From positions 37,009-101,008 of the forward strand of contig JAILXR010000001.1 of assembly GCA_050789445.1 (NCBI GenBank): a stretch of 64,000 nt of DNA. Reading direction: 5' to 3'. The position numbers were made by a program, and so were the translations under genes. Source of the stretch: Cellvibrionaceae bacterium (lineage in GTDB: Bacteria; Pseudomonadota; Gammaproteobacteria; Pseudomonadales; Cellvibrionaceae). Below are positions 6,315 through 52,207 of this stretch, in pieces. The notes under the pieces are model-generated. The model ran no database searches. It saw nothing but the letters and a program-made list of their open reading frames with translations, and had not been told where the DNA came from. Numbering within the stretch: the first letter of the stretch is position 1; each line of letters opens with the position of its first letter.

Positions 6315-6336
6315 AAATTAACTGATAAGTAAACAC

Positions 6337-6370
6337 AAAAAAGCCGAGGAATTTCTCGGCTTTTTTGTGT
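6337..6370 (+). terminator. rho-independent terminator after the TonB-receptor gene
   Basis: aaaaaagccgag-gaatttc-tcggctttttt. It overlaps the 5' end of track ORF 6367, which argues that the ORF's N-terminal extension is not real. Confidence 0.65.
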
Positions 6371-6480
6371 GTCGGAGGTCCTGTATTGAACTGCTTGTGC
6401 TCGCGCATATCTTAGGTGCTGTTTCTGGTGTAAGCTTTTCGTACATTGTTTTGGAAAATCATTTTTTGCAGATAAATTTT

Positions 6481-7290
6481 ATGGTTGATTTAGATAAAGA
6501 TACAGGTGGTAAGTCGCATCAGGTTGGAGAGGAAGAATTTGTTCTTCCCATAGATGATCATGTTGAAGAAGTTAAAGAAAATGGAGAGACAGTTCGCCGT
6601 CGTGGGATTTTTTTGCTTCCCAACTTGATAACGACAGCCGCTCTGTTTAGCGGTTTTTATGCAATCGTTGCAGGCATGCATGGTGATTTTGAGAATGCTG
6701 CAGTGGCTATTTTTGCGGCTATGGTTTTCGATGGCCTAGATGGCAGGGTAGCTAGGATGACCAATACCTCTAGTGCATTTGGAGTTGAGTACGATAGCTT
6801 GTCGGATATGGTGTCATTTGGTCTGGCTCCAGCCCTAGTCATGTTTAATTGGGCGCTAGTTCCTCTGGGTAAGTATGGGTGGGCTGCATCCTTTGCTTTT
6901 GCTGCGTGCGCCGCATTACGTTTGGCTAGGTTTAATACACAAGTAGGGATTATTGATAATCGTTTTTTTGTCGGCTTATCTAGTCCGGCAGCTGCCGCCG
7001 TTGTTGCAGGTACCGTTTGGGTGGGCTCAGAAATTGCTGTTGGCTTTGAGCTTTCAATCTTGTGTGGCTTTTTAACTCTTTGTGCAGGCTTATTAATGGT
7101 CTCGAATATTAAGTATCAAAGTTTTAAGGGGTTGGATTTAAAAGGAAGGGTTCCTTTTGTGGTTCTTCTTGTTGCTGTTCTAATTTTTGTGGTGGTGGCA
7201 AGTAATCCTTCAGTGATGCTTTTACTGTTGGCTGCCACTTATGCTGCTTCAGGTCCTGTGGCCTGGGTCTGGCGTTTGTTTAAGAAGTAG
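6481..7290 (+). CDS. pssA: CDP-diacylglycerol--serine O-phosphatidyltransferase (CDP-alcohol phosphatidyltransferase type)
   Basis: CDP-OH phosphatidyltransferase motif FDGLDGRVARMTNTSSAFGVEYDSLSDMVSFGLAP in a multi-TM protein. I trimmed the start to ATG 6481 (MVDLDKD...) because nts 6367-6480 overlap the upstream terminator. Confidence 0.7.
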   Translation: MVDLDKDTGGKSHQVGEEEFVLPIDDHVEEVKENGETVRRRGIFLLPNLITTAALFSGFYAIVAGMHGDFENAAVAIFAAMVFDGLDGRVARMTNTSSAFGVEYDSLSDMVSFGLAPALVMFNWALVPLGKYGWAASFAFAACAALRLARFNTQVGIIDNRFFVGLSSPAAAAVVAGTVWVGSEIAVGFELSILCGFLTLCAGLLMVSNIKYQSFKGLDLKGRVPFVVLLVAVLIFVVVASNPSVMLLLLAATYAASGPVAWVWRLFKK

Positions 7291-7453: not shown

Positions 7454-7617
7454 AACGATCAAGCAAAGCGTGTGGGCGCTTGCAGGATAGGCTAAAGAAC
7501 GAAAGAACCTATCAAAGCAAGTGTCCTAAAATTTATTTTAAGTCAGTTGACTTTGAGCAAGAAATTAGAGGCTTTGATGTACTGTCTTCGGGCAGATAAA
7601 GCTTCGCAACTTTTCAA

Positions 7618-9148
<1,531 letters not shown>

Positions 9149-9245
9149 AACGATACTTTACCTGTTCTGTAAACGCTCACACGCATTGCTTGATCAATTT
9201 TCAATAACTTCTAATGAGGTTGTTGGAGATGGCCGTGTTCGCCAT

Positions 9246-9322
<77 letters not shown>

Positions 9323-9339
9323 ACTACTTGAGAAAATAC

Positions 9340-9415
9340 GGGGCTATAGCTCAGCTGGGAGAGCGCTTGGTTTGCATCCAAGAGGTCTGCGGTTCGATCC
9401 CGCATAGCTCCACCA
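9340..9415 (+). tRNA. tRNA-Ala (anticodon TGC) in the 16S-23S spacer
   Basis: ggggctatagctcagctgggagagcgcttggttTGCatccaag...ctccacca, with a G3:U70-type acceptor. Confidence 0.9.
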
Positions 9416-9811
9416 ATTTCTACTGTTCTGTACAGTCTTTAGAAATGAGAAATAAACTGTTTTATCATTGTTGTTCATGATGAAGACATTTTATTTCTGG
9501 TTTTTAATCAGTCATTACCCTTAGCGGTATTGAGTTGTTTAACAAAATGGCAAAGTTTTAAGTTGTAATACTGCTGATTAATGGCAAGTGTGCTTATCAC
9601 GAATCAGTGAGTAGGACGAAGGCATACTAGTGAAAGCTAGAATGTTGGATGACTGCGCACGATTCTAACAAGCACACCTGTCCGGTGAATCACAATCATG
9701 TTGCAAAAAAGAGATACCCGTTGTGATTATCAAAGCGACACAGAATAGCGTGTAGTGAGATATGAACGACACTATCATTTGTAATAAGTCGTACAGTCGT
9801 TTGAATTATAT

Positions 9812-12698
<2,887 letters not shown>

Positions 12699-12865
12699 AT
12701 AATTGAGATGATTGTATGACGATTGTGACGGACAGTGTGCTTGAATGACATTGCCATTGAGAAACAGTAGAACAACTTAAATCATTGCCAAATTTGTGTT
12801 GAGATTGAAAAGTCTCTATCAGATACGAAAGTACTGATACTAGCGATTGCTAGAGCAAACCAGTT

Positions 12866-12985
12866 TGCCTGACGACCATAGCGAGTTGGAACCACCTGAT
12901 CCCATCTCGAACTCAGAAGTGAAACGACTTAGCGCCGATGGTAGTGTGGGGTTTCCCCATGTGAGAGTAGGACATCGTCAGGCTT
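12866..12985 (+). rRNA. rrf: 5S ribosomal RNA
   Basis: tgcctgacgaccatagcgagttggaaccacctgatcccatctcgaactcagaagtgaaacg...ccatgtgagagtaggacatcgtcaggct matches the 5S pattern. Confidence 0.93.
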
Positions 12986-12993
12986 TAATACCA

Positions 12994-13030
12994 AAAACCC
13001 CGTGTAGATAAATCTGCACGGGGTTTTTTT
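12994..13030. terminator. bidirectional rho-independent terminator (end of the rrn operon; also 3' of the convergent response-regulator gene)
   Basis: aaaaaccccgtg-tagataaatc-tgcacggggttttttt has an A-run 5' and a T-run 3' of a perfect 9-bp GC-rich stem, so it can terminate on either strand. The minus-strand regulator gene stops at 13091. Confidence 0.7.
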
Positions 13031-13090: not shown

Positions 13091-13981
13091 TTAATGATTT
13101 AGAAGCTGTAGTGATGCCGACGCAGCTGAAGTCCGGTTCTCAACGCCTAATTTCTTATATACTTGCTCCAAATGTTTATTCACGGTTCTTGGGCTTAGCG
13201 ATAGAATTTGTGCGATGTCTTGATTGGATTTTCCTTTTGATAACCAAATTAAAACCTCTGCTTCTCTTCGCGTTACGTTAAATTCTTTTTGTAGTTTTTC
13301 TCTATTTTTCTCTTCGTTATCTTCAACTAATCTCAATAAAAACTCTCCTGGCGCAGTTTGTCTAAGATAGCGTATTTGAGTATTTTGCGGATCGTCTTTG
13401 AGTGTTAAATGACTATTTTTAATTGGATTTCTTTCTAACCACTTTCTTAGTTGATTTGATATTTTTTCTGTAATTGATGAAGAGTTTAATAGTTTTTTAG
13501 CAGCTTCAGTGGACCATAATATTTGTCCGTTAATGTCGGATGAAAAGGTTAATTGTCCAATTTCATTTAATGCGCTGCGAGCGCCTCTTGTTATTCTAGA
13601 GTTGCTCAGGTGTACGCGAATTCTGGCAAATAATTCATCTAGTTGGATTGGCTTGTTGATGTAATCTACTCCACCAGACTCGAGTCCTTCTACAACATGT
13701 TCTGTGTCACTTAGACCGGTCATGAATATGACTGGGATATCAGACAGCTCTGAATTCTTTTTAATTTTTTTACAGGTTTCAAAACCATTTAGATTAGGCA
13801 TTATTGCATCAAGGAGAATAATGTCCGGGATCATTTTTCCTGCAATTGATAAAGCTTGCACGCCATCCATCGCAATTAAGACAGTAAAACCTGCTTTCGT
13901 TAAGGCTGTGTTTAATATTCCCAAAGAATCTGGTGAGTCATCGGCAATTAAAACAATTCCGTGATTGTTGTTATCAATCAT
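13091..13981 (-). CDS. response regulator: N-terminal REC domain, ~100-aa insert, C-terminal LuxR/GerE-type HTH
   Basis: The REC domain reads LIADDSPDSL...DIILLDAIMP...K. The C-terminus is a LuxR HTH (REAEVLIWLSKGKSNQDIAQILSLSPRTVNKHLEQVYKKLGVENRTSA). The start codon overlaps the kinase stop (ATGA at 13974-13981), which suggests translational coupling. Confidence 0.85.
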   Translation of the reverse strand: MIDNNNHGIVLIADDSPDSLGILNTALTKAGFTVLIAMDGVQALSIAGKMIPDIILLDAIMPNLNGFETCKKIKKNSELSDIPVIFMTGLSDTEHVVEGLESGGVDYINKPIQLDELFARIRVHLSNSRITRGARSALNEIGQLTFSSDINGQILWSTEAAKKLLNSSSITEKISNQLRKWLERNPIKNSHLTLKDDPQNTQIRYLRQTAPGEFLLRLVEDNEEKNREKLQKEFNVTRREAEVLIWLSKGKSNQDIAQILSLSPRTVNKHLEQVYKKLGVENRTSAASASLQLLNH

Positions 13982-16900
13982 CGTGTATGTTCTCTTTAGT
14001 TACCTTTATTATTTCAGAAAACTGAAAGCGATCTAAATATTGATTCATTTTATTGATGTAATTATTGGCACCATTTTTTTTGCTAATGCGTTTTAGAATC
14101 TTTGATACTCCATCGGCAAAGCCTAGTTCTGCCATGCTGATAAGTTCACGACGGTCTTCCTCAGAAAGATAGTAAATTTTGGATTCAATTTGTTCAGGCC
14201 TGCTTGGTTTCTCAGTGGTAGCTTTATCAATTGTATCCGTGTCGTAACACCATTCTAGGTCTAGCGCACTTGAGATGGCATTTAATAATAATGTATCTCT
14301 AATCGGTTTAATTAAATAATCTTCATAAATCTTACGTTTTCCTATGTTTTTTATCTTGTTATGATCTTCAGTGGCATCTGCGGAGACAATAATAATAGGT
14401 GCTTTAAATTGTTGATCTTGCAGTTGTTTGGCGAGCTCTATACCAGTAATCCCCGGCATGGAAATATCTAAGAATAATAAATCGATACGACTTGAATTGA
14501 TTAATTTAAGACAAGCTTCACCATCAGAGGCTTCATGCACAACGAATCTGAGAGGTGTTAAGATCGCATTGATTAAACCTCTATGTGCTGGGTCATCATC
14601 GACCACCAAGATACTTTTAGGTGTTCCCTTATAAGATATAATTTTTTTAACTTCTGTTTCTTGTTTTACTTCTTCGTGAACGCTAGAGAGCATTAACGTC
14701 ACTTTAAATGTGCTGCCAATCCCTGGGAGGCTGGTAAGAGTTAGCTCGCCGCCCATAATTTCTGTGAGCAATTTTGTTATTGTAAGCCCTAAGCCAGTGC
14801 CTGGAATTTGGCTTTCTCCAGGTTTACGTATTCGCTCGAAAGGTTTGAATATTAATTCCTGTTCATGCTCCTCAATCCCAACACCTGTATCTGTAATTGT
14901 AAATTCAGCGACTTGGCTTCGATAATTAACGGCAAGAGAAACTTTACCTGAGCGTGTAAATTTAACCGCGTTTGATAATAGGTTAATTAAAATTTGCCGT
15001 AGATGTTTTTCGTCAGCGATTACCTTGTTGGGCAAGTAGCTGGTGAGGATATATTCAAATTGAATGCCTTTTGCATCAGCTTGAAGCTGAAACATTTCAA
15101 TAAGGTCATCGAGTAAATCCCGGATGAAAACTTTGTCTCTATGTAATTCTAATCGACCCGCTTCGATTCGAGAAATGTCGAGGAGACCTTCTATCAGATC
15201 AGCCAGATGTTCTCCGCTACGTCGAATGATATTTACACGATTCATTTGTTCGCTGGTTAAGTCAATGTCATGATTTAATAATTGGGCATAACCTAAAATT
15301 GAATTTAAAGGACTTCTGAGTTCATGACTAATCCCCGTTAAGTATCGACTTTTTGCTAAATTTGCTGACTCTGCTATTTCTTTAGCGTTCTGTAATTCGT
15401 GATCAGTTTTTTCATGAGCGAGTATTTCTTTTGATAATAACGATGTTTGACGAATAGAATCTTCAAGAGCCATTTGCCTGCTTTCATTCGCTAAAACAAA
15501 CAGCCAAGTTAATACTCCGACAATGATAATCAACAAGAAAAATATTTGAGTTAGGGTGCCGGCAACAATTTCTTTTAATACAATGTCTGTTGACGGAATT
15601 TGTAAAAAAACCATCCAAAATAAAACGGCAACAATAAAAATAATCAGCGTCAGTAAACCAGAAAACTGCAATAGCCTTGGATTCATGAGCTCAACAAGTT
15701 GTTGTGGAAGTATAGAAGAAACAAAATTTGTAATTTGATCAGAAAATTTTGCGCCCTCTTTGCATTGATCATTGCAACTTGAATCTAGGGAACAACAAAG
15801 CGAACAAATCGGCCCTCCATAAGCAGGGCAGGTTGTCATGTCTTCTATTTCGAAATCATTTTGGCAGACGGTACAGGTAGCGCTGTCTGAATTAAATGTT
15901 GAAATAAGATTCGGCCGTGCAATGTAATATTTCCCTTTCGTGATAATTGCGATTAACGGCGAGGTAATAAAAGCCGTCATTAATGCAATATACGGTGAAA
16001 GAGCATGGGCGAGTTCACCAAGGCTTTTTGAGTAACATAGAATACCTACCGTCGATGCAATCAACATCGCACCAACACCAACAGGGTTAATGTCGTATAA
16101 GTGGGCACGTTTAAATTCGATATAGTTAGGGCTTAATCCTAGAGGTTTATTGATGACCAAATCAGCCACGAGTGCGCCGACCCAGGCGACAGCAACATTC
16201 GAATAAATACCGAGTATACGTTCTAGTGCGTTATAAACGCCTAGCTCCATTAACAATAAAGCAATCATCACGTTAAAGACAAGCCAAACAACTCGGCCAG
16301 GATGGCTATGGGTCAATCGAGAAAAGAAGTTTGACCAAGCAATTGATCCTGCATAGGCGTTGGTCACATTAATTTTTAATTGGCAGACGATGACAAAAAT
16401 ACCTGTCAAAGCTAGGGTGAAATTGGGTGATTGTTTGAGATAACTAAAAGCAATCAAATACATATTAGTCGGGTCGCTAGCAAGGTCGGCGGGAACGCCA
16501 TGATTGAGTGCCAACACAGCAAGAAAAGAACCTGCAATAATTTTTAAAGCCCCTACGATAATCCAACCCGGTCCAGCACAAATTAAAGCAGCCCACCATT
16601 TACCTCGTTGACCTTTTTGGGGCTCAGGAAGAAACCTTAAAAAATCGACTTGCTCCCCAATTTGGGCCATTAATGAAAATAAAACACCGGACGCTGCACC
16701 AAAAAAGACAATATTAAAATTATTATCACCGCTAGGATTTTGATTGAGGGCAGTATGTTGTGACCAGTCAGCAACGATGGACCATTCTTGCCACAAGATA
16801 AATACGAAAGGGAGTAGTTGTAAGACGAGCCAAAGTGGTTGGCTCCATAGTTGAAAGCGGCTGATTAATGTAATTCCATGTGTAACAAGGGGGATTACGA

Positions 16901-17372
16901 TTAAAGAACACAAAAGATAGCCAATACTTTTTGGAATGTTAAATAGCAACTCTAATGCCGACGCCATAATGGCCGCTTCAAGTGCAAAAAATATAAAAGT
17001 AAAAGAGGCGTAGATGAGGGACGTGATCGTAGAGCCGATGTACCCGAAACCCGCACCACGGCTTAGTAAATCGATATCCACGCCGTATTTTGCGGCGTAG
17101 TAGCAGATAGGTATTCCAGTTAAAAATATGACGGTGGATACGAGTAGAATTGCGATTAATGAATTATCGAAACCGTAGTGAAGGGTGATTGTTCCGCCAA
17201 TGGCTTCTAAAGCAAGAAATGAAATCGCACCCAGAGCAGTGTTGGCTACCCGGCTTATAGACCAGCGCCGAGCTTTTTTCGCTGTAAAGCGTAACGCGTA
17301 ATCTTCTAACGTTTGGTTGGCGACCCAGCGGTTATAGCTTCTTCGAGTTTTAAAAATAGTTTGTTCGGCCAT
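13974..17372 (-). CDS. hybrid sensor histidine kinase with an N-terminal NCS1/CodB-like permease domain, a Cys-rich segment, HisKA, HATPase_c, REC and a C-terminal extension
   Basis: 1132 aa. Residues ~30-500 form a multi-TM region resembling nucleobase:cation symporter-1 / cytosine-permease proteins (AKYGVDIDLLSRGAGFGYIGS matches CodB AKTGLTTHLLARFSFGVKGS). An 8-Cys cluster follows (CTVCQNDFEIEDMTTCPAYGGPICSLCCSLDSSCNDQC). The H-box is GISHELRSPLNSILGYAQLL, with G-box/HATPase motifs (DTGVGI, GTGLGL). The receiver reads ILVVDDDPAHR...DLLFLDISMPG. Confidence 0.85.
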   Translation of the reverse strand: MAEQTIFKTRRSYNRWVANQTLEDYALRFTAKKARRWSISRVANTALGAISFLALEAIGGTITLHYGFDNSLIAILLVSTVIFLTGIPICYYAAKYGVDIDLLSRGAGFGYIGSTITSLIYASFTFIFFALEAAIMASALELLFNIPKSIGYLLCSLIVIPLVTHGITLISRFQLWSQPLWLVLQLLPFVFILWQEWSIVADWSQHTALNQNPSGDNNFNIVFFGAASGVLFSLMAQIGEQVDFLRFLPEPQKGQRGKWWAALICAGPGWIIVGALKIIAGSFLAVLALNHGVPADLASDPTNMYLIAFSYLKQSPNFTLALTGIFVIVCQLKINVTNAYAGSIAWSNFFSRLTHSHPGRVVWLVFNVMIALLLMELGVYNALERILGIYSNVAVAWVGALVADLVINKPLGLSPNYIEFKRAHLYDINPVGVGAMLIASTVGILCYSKSLGELAHALSPYIALMTAFITSPLIAIITKGKYYIARPNLISTFNSDSATCTVCQNDFEIEDMTTCPAYGGPICSLCCSLDSSCNDQCKEGAKFSDQITNFVSSILPQQLVELMNPRLLQFSGLLTLIIFIVAVLFWMVFLQIPSTDIVLKEIVAGTLTQIFFLLIIIVGVLTWLFVLANESRQMALEDSIRQTSLLSKEILAHEKTDHELQNAKEIAESANLAKSRYLTGISHELRSPLNSILGYAQLLNHDIDLTSEQMNRVNIIRRSGEHLADLIEGLLDISRIEAGRLELHRDKVFIRDLLDDLIEMFQLQADAKGIQFEYILTSYLPNKVIADEKHLRQILINLLSNAVKFTRSGKVSLAVNYRSQVAEFTITDTGVGIEEHEQELIFKPFERIRKPGESQIPGTGLGLTITKLLTEIMGGELTLTSLPGIGSTFKVTLMLSSVHEEVKQETEVKKIISYKGTPKSILVVDDDPAHRGLINAILTPLRFVVHEASDGEACLKLINSSRIDLLFLDISMPGITGIELAKQLQDQQFKAPIIIVSADATEDHNKIKNIGKRKIYEDYLIKPIRDTLLLNAISSALDLEWCYDTDTIDKATTEKPSRPEQIESKIYYLSEEDRRELISMAELGFADGVSKILKRISKKNGANNYINKMNQYLDRFQFSEIIKVTKENIHDD

Positions 17373-17801
17373 CTAATGTGTCTCGTGTCTTCTATTTGAG
17401 GGCCAAACCAACCTAAAAGTAAGAGTAAAAGTCTGTTGTCTTATTTGCGTTAACATGACATCTGCTTCCCGTATGCAAGAACATAAGAGATTCGTAATCA
17501 ATACTGGTGCAAGACCTATACCTAAAAAATTCTTATAGCTCTTTAGTCTTATGAAAGATTAAAAAGGGTGACTTAAAAAACATCCTTCTAATAAAAGTAC
17601 AAACACTATCGCCAAATCACGTTGAACGATATGCGTCAAATGACGTAGGTGAGTAGTGCAGTCTGCCAATTTCGCTCTTCTGTTAAATCCATCATTCTCT
17701 CCCTCGACACAATCTTTAATCGAAAATTTAAAGTTCTCCATATACCCAACCCGAATTCACTATATTCATTTTTTAATTAGATATATTAAGAGAGGTTCAT
17801 C

Positions 17802-19067
17802 ATGAGACACGTTCAGGCACATTCGAAGCTCGGATTAGAACGACGCTTATTCATCAAATCAATGGTAAAGAAAATGCTATTGATCCCGGCAGTCGCTGTT
17901 ATTACGAGTGGAATGTCATCTGTTTTTGCAGAGGTTAATACAACAGGATTGGCGGTTACCGATGACAAAGTGACCGTCGGGATTCTTCATTCTGTCACAG
18001 GAACAATGGCTATAAGTGAAACAGGATCAGTTCAAGCCGAAAAATTAGCCATCGAACAAATCAATGCAATGGGCGGTGTTCTCGGTCGCCAGATTGAATA
18101 CATCCAAGAAGATGGCGCAAGTGATTGGCCCACGTTCGCGGAAAAATCTAAAAAATTATTAGTTAACGATAAAGTTGCAGCAGTCTTCGGGTGTTGGACG
18201 TCGGCTTCTCGAAAAGCAGTACTTCCTATTTTTGAGCAATACAATGGAATGCTTTATTACCCGACTTTTTATGAAGGCTTAGAGCAGTCGCCTAATGTCA
18301 TTTACACAGGGCAAGAAGCAACACAACAAATTATTGCTGGTATTGATTGGGTTGTAAAAAATAAAGGCGCAAAAAAATTCTTCCTACTGGGATCGGATTA
18401 TATCTGGCCAAGAACATCTAACAAAATTGCTCGAAAACATATCGAGAAGTTAGGTTTGAAAGTAGTTGGTGAGGAATATTATCCATTGGGTCATACACAA
18501 TTTAATTCTGTAATAAACAAAATTAAATTAAAAAAACCAGATGTACTTTATGCAATTGTTGTTGGCGGATCTAATGTTGCTTTTTACAAGCAATTAAAAG
18601 CAGCTGGTATCGATATGACAAAAGAAAAACCAACAGTGCTTACTATTTCAGTAACAGAAGATGAAATATTAGGTATTGGTGGTGAAAATATTGTGGGAGC
18701 TTATGCCGCAATGAAATATTTTCAAAGCTTAGATAACCCGAATAACGAAGCTTTTGTGAAAGCATTTAAAGCACGATGGGGAGACGACATCGTTATAGGT
18801 GATGTAACTCAAGCTGCATATCTTGGACCTTGGTTGTGGAAAGCGGCAGTTGAAAAAGCAGGGTCATTTGATATTGATAAAGTTCGAGCTGCGTCTCCAG
18901 GAATTGAGTTGAAAACTGCACCAGAAGGCTATGTAAAAATACATGACAATCATCACCTATGGTCAAAAACACGGATTGGTCATGCGAAAAAAGATGGACA
19001 GTACGAGTTGGTTTATGAAACTGATGAGTTGGTAGAGCCTGATCCATTCCCGAAAGGTTATCAATAA
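17802..19067 (+). CDS. urtA: urea/short-chain-amide ABC transporter periplasmic substrate-binding protein (UrtA/FmdD-like, LivJ fold)
   Basis: 421 aa with a signal peptide and a type-I periplasmic binding fold. The closest resemblance is to UrtA-type binders (GILHSVTGTMAISE...GCWTSASRKAVLP). It is followed by two permease and two ATPase genes in urtBCDE order. Confidence 0.75.
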   Translation: MRHVQAHSKLGLERRLFIKSMVKKMLLIPAVAVITSGMSSVFAEVNTTGLAVTDDKVTVGILHSVTGTMAISETGSVQAEKLAIEQINAMGGVLGRQIEYIQEDGASDWPTFAEKSKKLLVNDKVAAVFGCWTSASRKAVLPIFEQYNGMLYYPTFYEGLEQSPNVIYTGQEATQQIIAGIDWVVKNKGAKKFFLLGSDYIWPRTSNKIARKHIEKLGLKVVGEEYYPLGHTQFNSVINKIKLKKPDVLYAIVVGGSNVAFYKQLKAAGIDMTKEKPTVLTISVTEDEILGIGGENIVGAYAAMKYFQSLDNPNNEAFVKAFKARWGDDIVIGDVTQAAYLGPWLWKAAVEKAGSFDIDKVRAASPGIELKTAPEGYVKIHDNHHLWSKTRIGHAKKDGQYELVYETDELVEPDPFPKGYQ

Positions 19068-19080
19068 GCAGCAATATGTT

Positions 19081-19120
19081 GAGAGCAAAAGAGACGTCGG
19101 ATCATCTTTTGCTCTCCTTC
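19081..19120 (+). terminator. intra-operon hairpin/attenuator between the binding-protein gene and the permease genes
   Basis: gagagcaaaag-(14 nt loop)-cttttgctctc, a perfect 11-bp stem, followed by ttcatttattt, which is only partly T-rich. Confidence 0.4.
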
Positions 19121-19238
19121 ATTTATTTAAATAATAGAAAATATTTAAAAATAAAAAACTACGAGCTGTTAAATGAAACAGCAATGACTAAAGAAATATC
19201 AATTGAAACAATACGTAATGAAGCATGGGGTGTAGAAA

Positions 19239-20165
19239 ATGTTCGATGAATACACGATGTCAGAACTCACTTCAATATTTGCGATGCAGGGCTTTGCTGG
19301 TCTCACATTATTTTCAGTGTTTGTGTTAATGGCGTTAGGTTTAGCAATAATTTTTGGGCAGATGGGTGTTATTAATATGGCCCATGGCGAATTTATGATT
19401 TTGGGAGCATATACAACCTATTTCACCTCCAATCTATTTTCTAATTATTTTCCTTCACTTTTTGACGGCTACTTTTTTGTCGCGATGTTTCTTGCGTTCT
19501 TAATTACAGCGGCACTTGGAGCCTTTGTCGAGTGGGCTATGATTCGACACTTGTATAAAAGACCACTTGATACTCTGTTAGCGACATGGGGTCTTAGTTT
19601 AATTTTACAGCAAACTTACCGAAGTGTTTTTGGTGCAAGAGAAGTTGGCGTTTCAATTCCTGACTGGATGATGGGCTCCTATGCAATGACGGACACGATA
19701 GATATTCCTATTAATGGCATTTTTGTAATGATCCTAACTATTTTTATTACTCTATGTGTTTATTTGATGATGCAAAAATCTCGGCTCGGTAAACAAACGC
19801 GAGCAGTTGTACAGAATAGACAAATGGCTGGAGCGGTAGGCATTAATACTGAACTTGTTGATAGGTTCACATTTGCTATCGGTTGCGGCATTGCGGGGAT
19901 AGCAGGATCAGCATTCACAATGATTGGCTCAACAGGACCAACAGCGGGACAACTTTATATCGTGGATACATTTCTTGTTGTTGTCTTCGGTGGAGCTTCT
20001 AGTTTGATTGGTACTGTCGCATCAGCATTTACAATTTCGCAGGCACAATCAACGATGGAATTTTTCTTAAGCGGTTCAATGGCAAAAGTTTTAACTTTGC
20101 TAATAGTGGTGGGAATACTGATGTTACGCCCACAAGGTTTGTTTACTTTGAAAATGAGACGTTAG
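19239..20165 (+). CDS. urtB: urea/amide ABC transporter permease (UrtB/LivH-like)
   Basis: 308 aa. Polytopic membrane protein of the branched-chain-amino-acid permease family (GLAIIFGQMGVINMAHGEFMILGAY). The start could alternatively be Met at 19257. Confidence 0.75.
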   Translation: MFDEYTMSELTSIFAMQGFAGLTLFSVFVLMALGLAIIFGQMGVINMAHGEFMILGAYTTYFTSNLFSNYFPSLFDGYFFVAMFLAFLITAALGAFVEWAMIRHLYKRPLDTLLATWGLSLILQQTYRSVFGAREVGVSIPDWMMGSYAMTDTIDIPINGIFVMILTIFITLCVYLMMQKSRLGKQTRAVVQNRQMAGAVGINTELVDRFTFAIGCGIAGIAGSAFTMIGSTGPTAGQLYIVDTFLVVVFGGASSLIGTVASAFTISQAQSTMEFFLSGSMAKVLTLLIVVGILMLRPQGLFTLKMRR

Positions 20166-20174
20166 GAGATCACT

Positions 20175-21317
20175 ATGTCATTTACAGATATGCGCGCTTT
20201 AATGCCAAAAAATGATCTCTGGAGCTTTGCAATATTAGCGGCGATTATTTTTATTGTTATGCCTTTATTTCTAGATATTTTTCGTTTGAATCTATTGGGT
20301 AAATACCTCACTTATGCATTTGTTGCTTTGGGTTTAACACTTTGTTGGGGCTTAGGAGGTATCTTAAGTTTAGGTCAAGGTGTGTTTTTTGGTTTAGGTG
20401 GTTACTGCATGGCGATGTTCCTAAAATTAGAAGCGTCAAGCCCTGAAAATACAAAAATACAATCGACTCCTGGTATTCCTGATTTCATGGATTGGAATCA
20501 ACTCACTGAGTTACCATTTTTTTGGGAACCATTCCACAGCTTTACATTTACATTAATTGCTGTGGTTTTAGTTCCTGCGGTTTTTGCTTACATCATCGGA
20601 GTTGCGATGTTTAAGCGAAGAGTGGGTGGAGTATATTTTGCCATTATCACTCAAGCGATAGCAGCGGTTCTTACTATTCTGATTATTGGGCAGCAAGGAT
20701 ACACCGGCGGTGTTAATGGAATCACAGATTTAAGAACATTGCACGGCTGGGATATTCGCCTCGATTCAGCAAAATATATTTTATATTTTATTAACGGCGT
20801 ACTTTTATTTGCCTGTCTTTTTGCGGCACAGTTTATTCGAAAAAGTAAGTTAGGAAGATTGCTAGTCGCAATGAGAGAGCAAGAAGATCGAGTGCGCTTT
20901 TCTGGATATGATGTTGCCAATTTTAAAATATTTATTTTTTGTATTGCAGGTGTTTTTTCTGCGATTGGCGGAGCTATGTTCACTTTGCAAGTGGGTTTTA
21001 TGTCTCCATCATTTGTAGGAATCGTACCGTCTATTGAGATGGTTATCTTTTGCGCGGTCGGTGGACGGTTGTCTTTGCTGGGTGCAGTGTATGGCACATT
21101 AATTGTGAACTATGCAAAAACCACTTTCTCAGAATCATTCCCAGAACTTTGGTTGTTTGCAATGGGTGCTCTATTCATAGGCGTTGTGATGGCATTTCCT
21201 GATGGATTAGCAGGGGTTTACCAGTCTCATGTACAGCCTTGGATAAAAAAACACTCTCATCGGTTACCAAAAATATTTGGAGGAAAAACATCTTCTCCTA
21301 AAGAAGCCGAGTGTTGA
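20175..21317 (+). CDS. urtC: urea/amide ABC transporter permease (UrtC/LivM-like)
   Basis: 380 aa, LivM-type permease (LSLGQGVFFGLGGYCMAMF). It has the long N-terminal extension typical of UrtC. Confidence 0.75.
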   Translation: MSFTDMRALMPKNDLWSFAILAAIIFIVMPLFLDIFRLNLLGKYLTYAFVALGLTLCWGLGGILSLGQGVFFGLGGYCMAMFLKLEASSPENTKIQSTPGIPDFMDWNQLTELPFFWEPFHSFTFTLIAVVLVPAVFAYIIGVAMFKRRVGGVYFAIITQAIAAVLTILIIGQQGYTGGVNGITDLRTLHGWDIRLDSAKYILYFINGVLLFACLFAAQFIRKSKLGRLLVAMREQEDRVRFSGYDVANFKIFIFCIAGVFSAIGGAMFTLQVGFMSPSFVGIVPSIEMVIFCAVGGRLSLLGAVYGTLIVNYAKTTFSESFPELWLFAMGALFIGVVMAFPDGLAGVYQSHVQPWIKKHSHRLPKIFGGKTSSPKEAEC

Positions 21318-21387
21318 TTTTAATGATTTATCAATATTCGTTATAGCTACATTGATGAGATGAGCATTGTTAAAAGTAAAAAATTAA

Positions 21388-22182
21388 TTGATAGGTGATT
21401 CTATGTCAGCAGCCCCAGCACAAAAAGTGTCAGAAAATAAAAATACCAAAGATTTTGTATTAAGCATTGAGGGCCTAACTGTTTCCTTTGACGGTTTCAA
21501 AGCAGTTAATGACTTGTCTTTTTATGTTGAAGAGCAAGAAATCAGAGTCATTATTGGTCCTAACGGTGCAGGTAAGACGACAGTATTAGATTTGATTTGT
21601 GGTAGAACTAAAGCGACAGAGGGTTCAATAAAGTTTAAAGGTAAAGAGTTAACAAAATTAAAAGAACATGAAATCGTACATTCAGGTGTTGGAAGAAAGT
21701 TTCAAAACCCATCGATATATGAAGATCTTTCGGTGTTCGAAAATTTAGAAATCTCATTCCCTCGAGGAAGAAGTGTATGGGGGGCGCTTGGTTTTAAAAG
21801 AGACTCGGAAGTTGTCAATAAGATACATGAAATAGCAGAGATGATATTTCTTAATGACCAGCTTGATTCTCAGGCTGCATTATTAAGCCATGGCCAAAAA
21901 CAATGGTTAGAAATAGGCATGTTACTTATCCAGGATCCAGAATTACTGATGTTGGATGAACCAGTTGCAGGTATGTCTGTTTCAGAAAGAAAAAAAACGG
22001 CAGAGCTTTTACAGCGCATAACAAAAGATCGATCTGTGCTCGTAGTAGAGCATGACATGCAATTTGTTGAAGATATTGCTGATAGGGTCACCGTATTGCA
22101 TCAAGGGAAATTATTATCCGAAGGTTCTATGGAGCGTGTAAAGAATGATCCAAAAGTAATTGAAGTTTATTTGGGACACTGA
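21388..22182 (+). CDS. urtD: urea/amide ABC transporter ATP-binding protein (UrtD/LivG-like)
   Basis: Walker A GPNGAGKTT, signature LSHGQKQWLEIGM, Walker B LLMLDEPVAGM. Confidence 0.8.
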   Translation: MIGDSMSAAPAQKVSENKNTKDFVLSIEGLTVSFDGFKAVNDLSFYVEEQEIRVIIGPNGAGKTTVLDLICGRTKATEGSIKFKGKELTKLKEHEIVHSGVGRKFQNPSIYEDLSVFENLEISFPRGRSVWGALGFKRDSEVVNKIHEIAEMIFLNDQLDSQAALLSHGQKQWLEIGMLLIQDPELLMLDEPVAGMSVSERKKTAELLQRITKDRSVLVVEHDMQFVEDIADRVTVLHQGKLLSEGSMERVKNDPKVIEVYLGH

Positions 22183-22269
22183 TAGCAGAAAAAATCAATA
22201 TATAACTGTAGTGACAATATTCAGCGATCGTTTAATAAGATTCGACGTTATGAAAAAGGAAACACAATT

Positions 22270-22959
22270 ATGTTAGAGCTAGCCGATTATCATGTCGCTT
22301 ATGGTCAAAGTGAAGTGATAAATAATATGAATCTAACGCTAAGGCCTAAAGAAATAATTGCAATTTTAGGGCGCAATGGGATGGGTAAAACAACGTTGAT
22401 GAAATCGTTAATTGGCATGATTCCATCGAAGCAGGGTAGCGTTAAATTAGAAGATAAAGAATTAGCCGGATTAAAAAGTCATCAGCGAGTTGCAGCGGGT
22501 GTGGGTTTTGTTCCTCAGGGAAGAATGATTTTTTCAACTATGACAGTGAAAGAAAATATTGAAACGGGTTTAACCACTACCAAAGCGAAAAAAGTCCCAG
22601 AGGACCTTTACAGCTTATTTCCAGTGTTATTAGAAATGAGAAATAGAAGAGGGGGTAATTTATCGGGTGGCCAACAACAACAGCTGGCAATAGCAAGAGC
22701 ATTAGCTAGTGATCCAAAAGTGCTTTTGTTGGATGAGCCAACTGAGGGGATTCAGCCATCAATTATTAAAGAGATGGCTAAAACACTGAAAGAAATTCGT
22801 GATCAAAGAGACCTGTCGATTATTGTTTCAGAACAGGTGCTTAGTTTTGCTTTGGATATCGCAGATCGAATTATCGTTATTGAAAAAGGCAAAATTGTTC
22901 ACGATGAAGCTCGAGAAAATGTCGACGAGAAAAAAGTTTCATCATATTTGTCCGTTTAA
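22270..22959 (+). CDS. urtE: urea/amide ABC transporter ATP-binding protein (UrtE/LivF-like)
   Basis: Walker A GRNGMGKTT, signature LSGGQQQQLAIARAL, Walker B LLLDEPTEGI. Confidence 0.8.
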   Translation: MLELADYHVAYGQSEVINNMNLTLRPKEIIAILGRNGMGKTTLMKSLIGMIPSKQGSVKLEDKELAGLKSHQRVAAGVGFVPQGRMIFSTMTVKENIETGLTTTKAKKVPEDLYSLFPVLLEMRNRRGGNLSGGQQQQLAIARALASDPKVLLLDEPTEGIQPSIIKEMAKTLKEIRDQRDLSIIVSEQVLSFALDIADRIIVIEKGKIVHDEARENVDEKKVSSYLSV

Positions 22960-22989: not shown

Positions 22990-24222
22990 ATGGCAGAAAC
23001 AATTATTAAAATTGACCTAAAAAAATCAGCCTACGAACACGACAATATTCACAATAGGTGGCATCCGGATATCCCGATGGTTTCTACGGTTAAGCCGGGT
23101 GATGATTTTATTATTGAATGTATGGATTGGACTGGCGGACAAATAAAAGATAATGATGATGCATCCGATGTAAGGGATGTGGATTTGTCGCAAGTACATT
23201 TCTTATCCGGACCTGTAGGTGTTGAAGGCGCCGAACCTGGAGACCTTCTCGTCGTTGACATCCTGGATATTGGTACTTTTAAAGAAAGTGAGTGGGGATT
23301 TAACGGCTTTTTCTCAAAACAAAATGGTGGCGGTTTTCTGACTGAACATTTTCCAGAAGCACAAAAAACAATTTGGGATTTTAACGGCATGTTTACTAAA
23401 TCTCGTCATGTTCCTGGTGTTGAATTTGCTGGATTAATACATCCGGGATTGATTGGTTGCTTACCCTCAAAAGAAATGTTGGAAGAGTGGAATAAAAGAG
23501 AAAAAGAATTGTTTGATACTGAACCTGATCGTGTACCGGGTTTAGCGAATCTACCTGATGCGTCTACGGCACATATGGGAAGAATGAAAGGTGATGCAAA
23601 AAAAGAAGCCGCAGCAGAAGGCGCTAGAACAGTTCCACCAAGAGAGCACGGCGGTAACTGTGATATTAAAGATTTGTCACGTGGTTCTAAAGTATATTTC
23701 CCAGTTTATGTGGAAGGCGGGGGCCTATCCGTAGGTGATTTGCATTTCAGCCAAGGTGATGGAGAAATTACATTCTGTGGTGCAATCGAAATGGCAGGTT
23801 GGATTCACCTTCGTGTTGAATTGATTAAAGATGGTATGTCGAAATACGCCATTAAAAATCCAATCTTTAAGCCAAGTCCTATCACACCACGTTACGATGA
23901 CTATTTAATTTTTGAAGGTATCTCAGTTGATGAACAAGGTAAGCAACATTATCTTGATGTTAATGTTGCGTATCGGCAAGCATGTTTGAATGCGATTGAA
24001 TACCTGAAAAAATTTGGCTATTCCGGAGCGCAAGCATACTCGCTACTAGGAACCGCACCTGTCCAAGGACACATTAGTGGTGTTGTTGACGTCCCTAACT
24101 CTTGTGCAACGCTTTGGTTGCCAACAGATATATTTGAGTTTGATGTTAAACCGAACGCTGATGGTCCAACAAAATACTTAGACGGAAGTGTTGAAGTTCC
24201 TTTGGCTCCGGATCTTAAGTAG
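22990..24222 (+). CDS. fmdA: formamidase / acetamidase (FmdA_AmdA family)
   Basis: 410 aa. The N-terminus reads ...HNRWHPDIPMV...PGD and the sequence resembles acetamidase/formamidase throughout. It lies immediately downstream of the amide ABC transporter and upstream of an FmdB-type zinc-ribbon gene, as in described fmd clusters. Confidence 0.8.
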   Translation: MAETIIKIDLKKSAYEHDNIHNRWHPDIPMVSTVKPGDDFIIECMDWTGGQIKDNDDASDVRDVDLSQVHFLSGPVGVEGAEPGDLLVVDILDIGTFKESEWGFNGFFSKQNGGGFLTEHFPEAQKTIWDFNGMFTKSRHVPGVEFAGLIHPGLIGCLPSKEMLEEWNKREKELFDTEPDRVPGLANLPDASTAHMGRMKGDAKKEAAAEGARTVPPREHGGNCDIKDLSRGSKVYFPVYVEGGGLSVGDLHFSQGDGEITFCGAIEMAGWIHLRVELIKDGMSKYAIKNPIFKPSPITPRYDDYLIFEGISVDEQGKQHYLDVNVAYRQACLNAIEYLKKFGYSGAQAYSLLGTAPVQGHISGVVDVPNSCATLWLPTDIFEFDVKPNADGPTKYLDGSVEVPLAPDLK

Positions 24223-24379: not shown

Positions 24380-24733
24380 ATGCCAGTGTATGATTATAAA
24401 TGTAGTGATCACGGCATATTTCATGAGTTGGCCTCGATTGCTGATCATTCAAAGCCTGCTGAATGTCCGAGTTGCAAAAAACTATCGGCGAGAGTCATCA
24501 TGTTTGCACCAAATGTTATGAAAATGGCACCTGAGAAAAAAGATGCCATTGAGCGAAATGAAGTAGCTAAGCATGAACCTCAACATTCAACAGCTGATAC
24601 TCGTGCAGAAAATGCTGAAAAACTCAAACATGGTTGCGGATGTGAACACAAAAAGAAACCATCAAAGCTGATGTATACAGCAGAGGGAAATAAGATGTTC
24701 CCTACAGCAAGACCTTGGATGATTAGTCATTAA
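24380..24733 (+). CDS. fmdB: FmdB-family putative regulatory zinc-ribbon protein
   Basis: 117 aa. The N-terminus MPVYDYKCSDHGIFHE...CPSCK is the characteristic FmdB Zn-ribbon. It is adjacent to fmdA. Confidence 0.7.
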   Translation: MPVYDYKCSDHGIFHELASIADHSKPAECPSCKKLSARVIMFAPNVMKMAPEKKDAIERNEVAKHEPQHSTADTRAENAEKLKHGCGCEHKKKPSKLMYTAEGNKMFPTARPWMISH

Positions 24734-51537: not shown

Positions 51538-51613
51538 GCTGGTGTAGCTCAGTTGGTAGAGCAGCTGACTTGTAATCAGCCGGTCGGGGGTTCGACTCCT
51601 CTCACCAGCTCCA
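51538..51613 (+). tRNA. tRNA-Thr (anticodon TGT)
   Basis: gctggtgtagctcagttggtagagcagctgactTGTaatcagc...caccagctcca. Confidence 0.85.
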
Positions 51614-51775
51614 ATTTATTTTTGGTTATCATTGTTTGGGTAATCAGTCGGCAGATAAAAATTTGCTGAGTTTAAGGTCACCTTTGTGCTCTAACTCCTC
51701 AGAATATAAAAGATTATTCATTTTTGAGGTTGTTGACATCAGAAGGGGCGAAGCGGACAATGTCCGGCTATTTTC

Positions 51776-51859
51776 GCAGGGGTTCCCGAGTGGCCAAAGG
51801 GATCAGACTGTAAATCTGACGCGCAAGCTTCGGTGGTTCGAATCCACCCCCCTGCACCA
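51776..51859 (+). tRNA. tRNA-Tyr (anticodon GTA), with a long variable arm
   Basis: gcaggggttcccgagtggccaaagggatcagactGTAaatctga-cgcgcaagcttcgg-tggttcgaatccacc-cccctgcacca. Confidence 0.85.
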
Positions 51860-51966
51860 GATTTGTCAGCAGGCATCCTTTTGACCAGGTTGGTTCTGGT
51901 TGGGTACTCTACTGATAACTGCCTTGTTTTCAGCCTGTGTGGGTTTGGAGGTGAGGTAAAGCCTAA

Positions 51967-52040
<74 letters not shown>

Positions 52041-52131: not shown

Positions 52132-52207
<76 letters not shown>

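What the first reader, a model, noticed from the sequence alone, without database searches (positions are those of the whole stretch)
13974..17372. Hybrid histidine kinase whose sensor is a complete NCS1/CodB-like permease domain
The first ~500 aa of the 1,132-aa kinase form a polytopic domain with clear similarity to nucleobase:cation symporter-1 proteins. The core AKYGVDIDLLSRGAGFGYIGS parallels CodB's AKTGLTTHLLARFSFGVKGS, and 11-12 TM helices are predicted. This is fused to HisKA, HATPase_c, REC and an extra ~130-aa tail. The transporter-kinase fusions I know of (CbrA, CrbS) use SSSF/SLC5 domains. I do not recall an NCS1-type fusion, but I cannot search the literature. NCS1 substrates are ureides and cyclic amides (allantoin, hydantoin, cytosine, uracil). 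That would be chemically coherent with the adjacent urea/amide-formamidase operon.
Basis: partly seen in the sequence, partly recalled or inferred. Interest (0 to 1): 0.6.

Follow-up and report, generated by a model that had tools for sequence, protein, structure and literature searches.

The report
Permease-like amide sensor kinase
This gene encodes a two-component sensor kinase whose membrane part is folded like the cytosine transporter CodB, and it is almost always found next to genes for taking up and breaking down formamide, acetamide or urea, so it is probably the unstudied sensor that switches those genes on.

Summary

The family is large: 2,158 clusters at 50% identity and at least 588 species. 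JGI auto-names some members 'purine-cytosine permease-like', but I found no paper on it.

Synteny is very strong. A LuxR-type regulator follows in 73 of 73 loci, urtABCDE lies divergently in 62 of 67, and FmdA or AmiE amidase is present in 59 of 67. Kinase-less relatives sit beside amidase or urea-carboxylase genes. A conserved 7-2-7 palindrome lies upstream of urtA.

The most likely function is a transceptor-type sensor for short-chain amides or urea, which makes it a new variant of the CbrA/KsAmt5 kind. Ligand, transport and regulation are all inferred.

The parts
13974..17372 (-). Hybrid sensor histidine kinase gene (1,132 aa plus stop). It is identical to NCBI MGI1677122.1, named 'MAG: response regulator [Cellvibrionaceae bacterium]'.
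   Evidence: ORF list and translation; Pfam domains; exact database look-up.
15930..17285 (-). NCS1/CodB-like LeuT-fold permease module, residues ~30-481, with 12 TM helices and a broken TM1 at 48-54. Invariant polar residues include D99, D101, R105, E132, N335, N338, S343 and R352. Q237, E240, Q241, D243, R246, F247 (DFLRF) and K333 are nearly invariant (90% or more).
15753..15884 (-). Cytoplasmic Cys-rich insert, residues 497-540: C-x2-C-x11-C-x7-C-x2-CC-x5-C-x3-C. Predicted as four short strands plus a helix, so probably a zinc ribbon or treble clef. It is present in both kinase-fused and kinase-less family members.
   Evidence: Cys positions; near-invariance; secondary structure; only weak RING or Zn-finger matches.
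15477..15680 (-). TM13-TM14 helical hairpin (residues 565-632). It is absent from the kinase-less relatives. TM14 runs on into the signalling helix.
   Evidence: Hydropathy; AF2 helices 565-590 and 597-632; standalone members end before it.
15357..15476 (-). Helical linker (residues 633-672) between TM14 and the DHp domain. No HAMP, PAS or STAC domain is detected.
   Evidence: Pfam finds nothing here; sequence.
15156..15356 (-). HisKA/DHp domain (673-739) with the phospho-accepting His683 in SHELRSPLN.
   Evidence: Pfam E 1.8e-17; residue number.
14688..15014 (-). HATPase_c catalytic domain (787-895), with N box at 797, G1 at 828 and G2 at 858.
   Evidence: Pfam E 4e-24; motifs.
14274..14612 (-). 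Receiver domain of the hybrid kinase (921-1033), with D969 and K1022 intact.
   Evidence: Pfam E 3.7e-23; residues.
13977..14273 (-). Optional C-terminal tail (1034-1132). It has no Pfam match and no conserved His, so it is not an HPt domain. It is present in a minority of orthologs.
   Evidence: Pfam gives nothing; alignment of 11 orthologs; tblastn finds it only in L002 and L003.
13091..13981 (-). Cognate response regulator (296 aa): REC (10-122, D58) plus an unassigned ~110-aa middle region plus a GerE/LuxR HTH (237-288). It overlaps the kinase stop by 8 nt.
   Evidence: ORF; Pfam; present downstream in 73 of 73 loci with flank.
17632..17647 (+). Candidate operator TGCGTCA-AA-TGACGTA, a 7-2-7 inverted repeat 155 bp upstream of the urtA ATG.
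   Evidence: Sequence. It is the only copy in the 64-kb window at <=3 mismatches, though about 0.5 matches are expected by chance, so the window count alone is not significant. The exact 16-mer occurs once per locus in 12 loci of several genera, always upstream of urtA. Binding by the regulator is inferred.
17802..22959 (+). urtABCDE-type ABC transporter genes (urtA 17802-19067, urtB 19239-20165, urtC 20175-21317, urtD 21388-22182, urtE 22270-22959), divergent from the kinase gene.
   Evidence: All five score above NCBIfam cut-offs; a UrtA ortholog is divergent from the kinase in 62 of 67 loci.
22990..24222 (+). fmdA formamidase (410 aa).
   Evidence: NCBIfam FormamaseFmdA 780.6 bits against a cut-off of 500; Pfam FmdA_AmdA; present in 58 of 67 loci.
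24380..24733 (+). fmdB-like zinc-ribbon protein (117 aa, 'RPWMISH' C-terminus).
   Evidence: NCBIfam NF053663 and TIGR02605; present in 60 of 80 loci.

Best explanation
This is the sensor of a two-component system that turns on uptake and hydrolysis of small amides (formamide, acetamide and/or urea) as nitrogen sources.

Shown:
- The protein is a hybrid histidine kinase.
- Its input is a 12-TM LeuT-fold module most similar to the cytosine permease CodB (NCS1).
- An invariant 8-Cys zinc-ribbon-like domain follows, then a TM13-14 hairpin that runs through a helical linker straight into the DHp domain (His683).
- A REC-LuxR regulator gene overlaps its 3' end.
- urtABCDE-fmdA-fmdB lies divergently, and this arrangement is conserved across Alpha-, Beta- and Gammaproteobacteria.

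Inferred:
- The amide binds in the central pocket of the permease-like module, formed by TM1, TM3, TM6 and TM8, where the invariant polar residues cluster. It may also be translocated.
- The resulting bundle/hash rearrangement passes through the zinc-ribbon domain and the TM13-14 hairpin to the coiled-coil and changes autophosphorylation.
- Phosphate reaches D58 of the LuxR-type regulator.
- The regulator binds the 7-2-7 palindrome upstream of urtA and activates the operon.
- The kinase's own receiver (D969) either acts as an internal phosphate sink or modulator, or feeds an unlinked HPt protein, because no HPt is encoded locally.
For: - Domains.
- Remote sequence homology: the NCBIfam CodB model hits members P0251 (4e-9) and P0186 (2e-5); Pfam Transp_cyt_pur hits P0251 at 1.4e-3. 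The family HMM against E. coli CodB gives E 1e-5 for one comparison. hhalign gives 39% probability.
- Synteny: regulator in 73 of 73 loci, UrtA in 62 of 67, FmdA in 58 of 67, AmiE in 19 of 67, FmdA or AmiE in 59 of 67. AmiE replaces FmdA in Zhongshania. A divergent member lies next to a urease operon together with a LuxR regulator.
- Kinase-less relatives lie directly upstream of FmdA (60% identical to the window's), upstream of amidase-signature amidases, or next to urea carboxylase and allophanate hydrolase.
- The sensor module is more conserved (~60% identity) than the kinase core (46.5%).
- Operator: the exact 16-mer is conserved upstream of urtA in 12 loci and stays with urtA when urtA is 2.4 kb from the kinase gene.
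- Precedents for transporter-domain sensors: CbrA (PMC13488458) and KsAmt5 (PMC8534201).
Against: - There are no experimental data for any member. Ligand, transport and regulon are all inferred from structure prediction and gene neighbourhood.
- The window protein itself reaches no NCS1 profile.
- CodB's substrate residue Gln105 is Thr125 here. The family-typical TM3 Trp is Phe128. The TM6 aromatic and the TM8 Thr-Thr sodium ligands could not be placed with confidence.
- An ABC transporter for the same substrates is already in the operon, so a second uptake route is not obviously needed.
- A hybrid kinase normally needs an HPt domain, and none is found in the cluster.
- Some orthologs have no amidase within 10 kb (8 of 67).
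- Some family members lie in unrelated contexts, for example next to flagellar and c-di-GMP genes.
Confidence: 0.6

Rival explanations
1. Receptor that no longer transports, like KsAmt5. The permease-like module still binds the amide or urea but has lost translocation. It serves only as a ligand-binding transmembrane receptor, and all uptake goes through the Urt-type ABC system.
For: A high-affinity ABC transporter is encoded in the same regulon. KsAmt5 sets the precedent of a transporter domain that binds without transporting (PMC8534201). The NCS1 sodium-site Thr-Thr motif is not recognisable.
Against: Residues that are invariant or nearly invariant in the fused forms are equally conserved in the kinase-less relatives, which look like working permeases placed next to amidases with no other transporter. 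In CbrA the fused SLC5 domain is reported to take up histidine (Wirtz et al. 2020, as cited in PMC13488458).
Confidence: 0.25
2. Ureide or nucleobase sensor. The module binds classical NCS1 substrates such as allantoin, hydantoins, cytosine or uracil, whose breakdown yields urea, and so induces the urea/amide genes indirectly.
For: The closest solved structures are the cytosine and hydantoin transporters. An aromatic residue is kept at the TM3 stacking position (F128).
Against: In the loci whose enzyme genes were identified, the enzymes found were FmdA, AmiE, amidase-signature amidases, urease or urea carboxylase, and none was an allantoinase, hydantoinase or cytosine deaminase. The 80-locus survey itself tested only for the window's own neighbours and AmiE. 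CodB's key Gln105 is Thr here. No member reaches the curated NCS1 cut-offs.
Confidence: 0.08
3. Co-sensing or status sensing. The module is mainly a conserved membrane scaffold, and the kinase reads something else: the activity of the Urt ABC transporter (as Bce-type and DctA/DcuS systems do), ammonium or formate product, or the ion gradient. Nitrogen control would be layered on through NtrC.
For: The TM13-14 hairpin plus kinase resembles an intramembrane-sensing kinase that could dock to a transporter. NtrC-like TGCACC/GGTGCA motifs occur in many intergenic regions. The fmd genes are ammonia-repressed in M. methylotrophus.
Against: A mere scaffold would not be expected to be more conserved than the kinase core or to keep invariant polar residues inside TM helices. 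The same module is also fused to GGDEF/EAL outputs and occurs alone beside amidases with no ABC system.
Confidence: 0.07

Closest known systems
NCS1 transporters, especially the cytosine permease CodB (PDB 7qoa) and the hydantoin permease Mhp1 (PDB 2jln); TC 2.A.39, Pfam PF02133
   Different: Identity is only 14-18%. The protein is below every curated NCS1 threshold. Gln105 is Thr and Trp108 is Phe. The TM8 Thr-Thr sodium ligands are not evident. It has an extra 8-Cys domain, two extra TM helices and a kinase. The gene context is amidases and urea enzymes, not nucleobase or hydantoin metabolism.
SLC5/STAC sensor kinases CbrA, CrbS and RpuS ('transceptors')
   Same: A LeuT-fold secondary-transporter domain is fused N-terminally to a histidine kinase (hybrid in CrbS). 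The kinase controls catabolism or uptake of a small nutrient through a cognate regulator.
KsAmt5, an ammonium-transporter-domain histidine kinase from Kuenenia
   Same: A nitrogen-compound transporter fold is reused as the input of a histidine kinase. It shows that such a domain can signal without net transport.
   Different: The Amt/Rh fold is a trimeric channel unrelated to the LeuT fold, and the ligand class differs.
AmiC/AmiR control of the Pseudomonas aeruginosa amidase operon, and FmdB as a proposed positive regulator of fmdA
   Same: They have the same physiological job: amide-responsive induction of an aliphatic amidase or formamidase operon that includes an ABC-type uptake system.
   Different: AmiC is a soluble periplasmic-binding-protein-like amide sensor that controls the antiterminator AmiR. 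No kinase, no membrane sensor and no phosphorylation is involved. The loci studied here have the kinase and LuxR pair instead.

Membership tests
NCS1 (nucleobase:cation symporter-1; Pfam PF02133 Transp_cyt_pur; NCBIfam CodB NF008241) | Scores above the curated profile cut-off | tested here: not met
   The window module gets no Pfam hit at E<=10 and no NCBIfam hit at E<=0.1. Best family members: PF02133 17.9 bits against a cut-off of 23.5; NF008241 35.6 bits against a cut-off of 326.
NCS1 | 12-TM LeuT fold (5+5 inverted repeat) with NCS1 structures as nearest neighbours | tested here: met
NCS1 | Aromatic pair sandwiching the substrate: TM3 Trp (CodB W108) and TM6 Phe or Trp (CodB F204), stated to be conserved throughout the family (PMC9379551) | tested here: inconclusive
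   The TM3 position aligns to Phe128, which is aromatic but not Trp and is conserved in the family consensus (mapping). The TM6 register is uncertain (L234 or F232). A structure-based alignment could not be extracted.
NCS1 | Na2 site with two hydroxyl ligands on TM8 (CodB T278, T279) | tested here: inconclusive
   TM8 here reads QLKINVTNAYAGS against CodB NIWTTNDNALYASG. There is no Thr-Thr pair, the nearly invariant K333 lies nearby, and the register is ambiguous.
NCS1 | Transports nucleobases, hydantoins, allantoin or vitamins | not testable with these tools
   Gene context points instead to formamide, acetamide or urea.
SLC5/STAC histidine kinases (CbrA/CrbS) | SSS/SLC5 transporter domain | tested here: not met
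SLC5/STAC histidine kinases (CbrA/CrbS) | STAC four-helix linker domain between the transporter and the kinase | tested here: not met
   No Pfam match is found in residues 480-670. That segment is a Cys-rich beta-hairpin domain plus two TM helices.
Hybrid histidine kinase (HisKA family) | DHp with H-box His, HATPase_c with N/G boxes, and a receiver with the acidic pocket Asp and Lys | tested here: met
   Pfam; H683, N box 797, G1 828, G2 858, D969, K1022.
Multi-step phosphorelay (His-Asp-His-Asp) | An HPt domain in the kinase or encoded nearby | tested here: not met
   There is no Hpt hit in the kinase, its tail or its neighbours. The tail has no conserved His and is optional. Only 1 of 150 representatives has an Hpt. 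An unlinked HPt gene elsewhere in the genome cannot be excluded.
Urea/short-chain-amide ABC transporter plus formamidase operon (urtABCDE/fmdDEF, fmdA, fmdB) | Equivalog-level matches to UrtA-E and FmdA | tested here: met
   All exceed the NCBIfam cut-offs, for example UrtA 561.7 against 492.75 and FmdA 780.6 against 500.

The most novel reading that the evidence does not exclude
The module founds an undescribed, widespread branch of the NCS1 superfamily: permeases for the smallest organic nitrogen compounds (formamide, acetamide, urea), carrying a built-in zinc-ribbon domain. Bacteria have recruited this branch as a signalling input with at least two kinds of output, histidine kinases and GGDEF/EAL enzymes. 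The kinase form would be the long-missing sensor behind formamide- and urea-inducible expression of fmd, ami and ure genes in Proteobacteria. It would also be a third, mechanistically distinct class of bacterial transceptor, coupled through a Zn-ribbon and a TM hairpin instead of STAC.
Probability: 0.45. Interest if true: 0.7.

Novelty: new variant of a known kind. Interest (0 to 1): 0.55.

Why it matters
- **Few precedents.** Transporter-domain sensor kinases are considered rare and are understood from only two folds: SLC5 (CbrA, CrbS) and Amt (KsAmt5). This is a third type, and it is not rare: 2,158 clusters at 50% identity and at least 588 species. Its coupling element, a Cys-rich domain plus a TM hairpin, is different.
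- **A testable answer to an open question.** The formamide/urea ABC-formamidase clusters of methylotrophs, rhizobia, Pseudomonas relatives and marine hydrocarbon degraders are known to be substrate-inducible, yet reviews name no sensor. This family is a concrete candidate.
- **Practical use.** Formamide is being developed as a selective nitrogen source in biotechnology, and urea and amide turnover matters in soils and oceans. A defined sensor, regulator and operator set would also give a ready-made biosensor.
- **Annotation gap.** The family has no Pfam or NCBIfam model for its N-terminal 630 residues, and members are named 'response regulator', 'ATP-binding protein' or 'hypothetical protein'.

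Tried and rejected
- **Direct profile assignment.** I tried Pfam at E<=10 on the N-terminal 668 aa, NCBIfam on the N-terminal module (aa 1-633), phmmer against PDB, and two family HMMs against PDB. None gave an NCS1 hit, so direct assignment failed.
- **First AlphaFold run.** With 21 close homologs it gave pLDDT 54, which is unusable. I replaced it with a 70-sequence diverse alignment.
- **Search with the divergent member P0251.** I hoped to bridge to true NCS1 proteins but got only 8 hits.
- **hhalign against a single CodB sequence.** It reached only 5% and then 39% probability. I did not build a proper NCS1 profile because the search tool returns only near-identical top hits.
- **AFDB fold search.** The library was unavailable.
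- **C-terminal tail as an HPt domain.** Rejected: no Pfam hit, no conserved His, and absent from most orthologs.
- **Sigma-54 promoter upstream of urtA.** No TGGC-N-TGC-type match in any of 71 intergenic regions.
- **Consensus promoter and terminator scan.** Fewer sigma-70-like sites than in shuffles and nothing informative in the intergenic region.
- **SLC5/STAC membership.** Rejected (see the membership test).
- **Contexts of standalone members P0199, P0200 and P0184.** The contigs were too short to be informative.
- **Literature.** Eight searches found no paper on this family. One genome note mentions the same gene arrangement in Ectopseudomonas guguanensis without analysis (PMC13296017).

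Full report
**1. What is at the coordinates**

An ATG-started ORF fills 13974-17372, on the minus strand. It encodes 1,132 aa. Pfam places HisKA at 673-739, HATPase_c at 787-895 and a receiver at 921-1033. The catalytic residues are intact: H683, the N, G1 and G2 boxes, D969 and K1022. The exact protein is in NCBI as MGI1677122.1, 'MAG: response regulator [Cellvibrionaceae bacterium]'. The nearest genome hit is a Cellvibrionaceae MAG at 93% identity over the N-terminal module.

The surroundings are as follows.
- A 16S-tRNA-tRNA-23S-5S operon lies at 7615-12983.
- A 296-aa REC-LuxR response regulator gene overlaps the kinase stop codon by 8 nt.
- Divergently, across a 429-bp spacer, lie urtABCDE, fmdA and an fmdB-like gene. 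The urt and fmdA products all score above NCBIfam cut-offs.

**2. Is the N-terminal part an NCS1 permease?**

By direct sequence profiles it is not assignable.
- Pfam at E<=10 gives no Transp_cyt_pur hit.
- NCBIfam gives nothing.
- phmmer and two family HMMs against all PDB sequences miss Mhp1 and CodB.

Pairwise comparison with E. coli CodB gives only 27% identity over 91 aa (E 0.006).

Three further lines settle the question.

(a) Structure. A first AlphaFold model from 21 close homologs was poor (pLDDT 54). A second, from 70 diverse family members, is confident (pLDDT 93.4, pTM 0.92).
- Foldseek's top five hits are all Mhp1 or CodB, at E 2e-10 to 7e-8. The SSS, Nramp, APC and NSS families start at 4e-7.

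(b) Transitive sequence homology. Divergent members of the same family were linked to the window's module at E 1e-90 or better.
- NCBI's CodB model hits P0251 at 4.3e-9, P0186 at 2e-5 (over profile 5-378 of 416) and P0276 at 4e-4.
- Pfam Transp_cyt_pur hits P0251 at 1.4e-3 over profile 34-418 of 440.
- All of these are below the curated cut-offs.

(c) Profile against CodB. A family HMM scores E. coli CodB at E 1e-5 in a one-sequence search. hhalign rises from 5% to 39% probability as the family alignment becomes more diverse.

I conclude that the module is a divergent relative of NCS1/CodB. It has the same fold and probably a common ancestry, but it lies outside the curated family boundaries.

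**3.

The model and hydropathy show 12 TM helices (about 39-477), with the broken TM1 typical of the LeuT fold. Three further elements follow.
- A cytoplasmic segment with eight nearly invariant cysteines (C500, 503, 515, 523, 526, 527, 533, 537). It is predicted as four short strands and a helix, and it gives only weak RING or zinc-finger matches.
- Two further long TM helices (565-632).
- A roughly 40-residue helix leading directly into the DHp domain, with no HAMP, PAS or STAC domain.

The 99-aa tail after the receiver has no family, has no conserved His and is absent from most orthologs. It is neither an HPt domain nor a core part.

**4. How common is it, and what is it fused to?**

The module defines a large family.
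- At least 6,450 clusters at 90% identity match.
- 2,158 representatives at 50% identity have E<=1e-3, and 703 have E<=1e-30.

Among the 150 best representatives, many of which are fragments, 58 carry a kinase core. Of those, 40 also carry a receiver. Six carry GGDEF and/or EAL outputs, and one has an HPt.

Kinase-less proteins of about 540-580 aa consist of the permease plus the Cys-rich tail, without TM13-14. They occur in Streptomyces, where PGAP names one 'purine-cytosine permease family protein', in Sporolactobacillus and in metagenomes. JGI's automatic names already call fused members 'signal transduction histidine kinase/purine-cytosine permease-like protein'. The module therefore behaves as a portable sensor or transporter unit.

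**5. Gene context**

I examined the 80 best genomic loci, which span Alpha-, Beta- and Gammaproteobacteria.

| Neighbour | Loci with it | Loci with enough flank |
|---|---|---|
| LuxR-type regulator, downstream | 73 | 73 |
| UrtA ortholog, divergent | 62 | 67 |
| FmdA | 58 | 67 |
| AmiE-type aliphatic amidase | 19 | 67 |
| FmdA or AmiE | 59 | 67 |

- In Zhongshania, AmiE replaces FmdA. In Marinobacter both are present.
- A divergent member lies head-to-head with a urease operon and is followed by kinase fragments and a LuxR regulator.
- Four of the five kinase-less members with informative contigs are at amide or urea loci. One sits 36 bp upstream of an FmdA ortholog that is 60% identical to the window's FmdA. 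One sits 33 bp upstream of an amidase, inside an amidase-rich cluster. One overlaps an amidase-signature gene by 4 nt. One lies next to urea carboxylase and allophanate hydrolase.
- The fifth informative member has only a GntR neighbour.
- One kinase-fused member lies among flagellar and c-di-GMP genes instead.

The common theme is small linear amides and urea. In the loci whose enzyme genes I identified, none encoded an enzyme of nucleobase, allantoin or hydantoin metabolism.

**6. A candidate operator**

The kinase-urtA spacer contains TGCGTCA-AA-TGACGTA (17632-17647). This is a 7-2-7 inverted repeat, the geometry used by NarL/LuxR-type regulators; that attribution is my own knowledge.
- It is the only copy in the 64-kb window even at three mismatches. 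About 0.5 matches are expected by chance, so that count alone is not significant.
- The exact 16-mer GCGTCAAATGACGTAG occurs once per locus in 12 loci from Cellvibrio, Thalassolituus, Marinobacter, Alcanivorax and a Burkholderiales MAG. It is always just upstream of urtA.
- In L012, urtA lies 2.4 kb from the kinase gene and the site stays with urtA.
- Alphaproteobacterial spacers carry related GACGTAGG and TACGTC half-sites.

That the regulator binds there is an inference.

**7. Mechanism**

Best-supported reading: a transceptor-type two-component sensor for short-chain amides and/or urea.
- Shown: the domain architecture, the fold, the conservation and the synteny.
- Inferred: the amide or urea binds in the central pocket of the permease-like module. 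The rocking of the bundle and hash domains is relayed through the zinc-ribbon domain and the TM13-14 hairpin into the coiled coil. His683 autophosphorylation changes. D58 of the regulator is phosphorylated. The regulator then activates urtABCDE-fmdAB from the palindrome.

The sensor module is more conserved than the kinase core (about 60% against 46.5% identity). It also keeps many invariant polar residues within TM helices. Both points argue for a working binding site rather than an anchor.

Mapping CodB's published binding residues (PMC9379551) gives Gln105 to Thr125 and Trp108 to Phe128. CodB's DFVRF motif matches the family's DFLRF. The TM6 aromatic and the TM8 sodium ligands could not be placed. 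The nearly invariant K333 in TM8 might replace the Na2 ion, as K196 does in CbrA (PMC13488458), but this is speculation.

No HPt domain is present in the cluster. The kinase's own receiver is therefore either a phosphate sink or modulator, or it uses an unlinked HPt.

Whether the module still transports is open. CbrA is reported to transport (Wirtz et al. 2020, as cited). KsAmt5 does not transport efficiently.

**8. Comparison with what is known, and novelty**

It works like CbrA/CrbS and KsAmt5 but is a member of neither family. There is no SLC5 domain, no STAC domain and no Amt fold. It is NCS1-like in fold but fails the curated NCS1 thresholds.

Eight full-text searches found no study of it. 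A 2026 structural paper still calls CbrA a 'rare transceptor'. A 2024 formamide review lists induction of the fmd cluster by formamide and urea without naming any sensor. One genome note records the same urt/fmdA/'two-component LuxR' arrangement in Ectopseudomonas without comment.

I rate it a new variant of a known kind. It is real, widespread, unannotated at the family level and experimentally untouched, but it is conceptually an extension of known transporter-fused sensors.

**9. Limits**

Everything functional rests on structure prediction and gene neighbourhood. The synteny statistics come from the 80 best-scoring loci, with many Bradyrhizobium among them, and are not phylogenetically corrected. 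The residue-level comparison with CodB relies on weak sequence alignments, because a structural superposition could not be extracted.

Noticed in passing
window 17632-17647: A 7-2-7 inverted repeat, TGCGTCA-AA-TGACGTA, lies 155 bp upstream of urtA. The exact 16-mer is conserved upstream of urtA in 12 loci of several genera. It is a likely operator for the LuxR-type regulator.
   Followed up: partly
Bradyrhizobium-type loci, e.g. L025 and L028, in the ~150-bp spacer between the kinase gene and urtA: These spacers share CCTACGTCG-N-ATTTTGCGGTGCAGTATACGC. The GGTGCA/TGCACC element resembles half of an NtrC site, which would fit ammonia repression of the operon.
   Followed up: no
window 13977-14273 (-): The 99-aa C-terminal tail of the kinase carries the motif L.E..R.EL...A..G[FY]..G...RFQF.E.I. 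It is shared with only some orthologs (P0001, P0019, P0244) and missing from most. It has no family and no conserved His.
   Followed up: partly
window 13091-13981 (-), residues ~123-236 of the regulator: About 110 residues between the receiver and the LuxR HTH have no Pfam match. This is unusually long for a NarL/FixJ-type linker and may be an extra domain.
   Followed up: no
window 24380-24733 (+): The FmdB-like protein combines an N-terminal CxxC zinc ribbon with NCBIfam's 'RPWMISH' domain. It co-occurs with fmdA in 60 of 80 loci, but its role as the proposed 'positive regulator' is unexplained now that a kinase and regulator pair is present.
   Followed up: no
L053, L076 and L080: Some orthologous kinase-regulator pairs sit next to a different Urt-like ABC system. 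Its UrtA is only 38-41% identical, its UrtB-like permease is ~540-550 aa, and L053 also has an ExtI-like porin. No FmdA or AmiE is within 10 kb, so the substrate may differ.
   Followed up: partly
L085 9897-11573: In the urease-linked member, the kinase is called as three separate genes: the module (621 aa), a HisKA fragment (199 aa) and a HATPase_c plus REC piece (354 aa). This is either a genuinely split sensor or frameshifts in the assembly.
   Followed up: no
window 25572-30932 (-): A 1,786-aa protein with DUF3686 ('ATPase involved in DNA repair'), DUF7902 and an AAA domain. A 179-aa TFIIB-type zinc-ribbon protein (25014-25553) lies immediately downstream of it on the same strand. Function unknown.
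   Followed up: partly
window 7615-13028: A complete rRNA operon (16S, two tRNAs, 23S, 5S) ends in a strong 16-bp-stem bidirectional terminator at 12993-13028. The same terminator probably also ends the convergent kinase-regulator operon.
   Followed up: no
window 51538-53684: A cluster of five tRNA genes on the plus strand.
   Followed up: no
window 3843-7290: A TonB-dependent receptor (823 aa) and a CDP-alcohol phosphatidyltransferase (307 aa, GTG start as listed) lie upstream of the rRNA operon.
   Followed up: no
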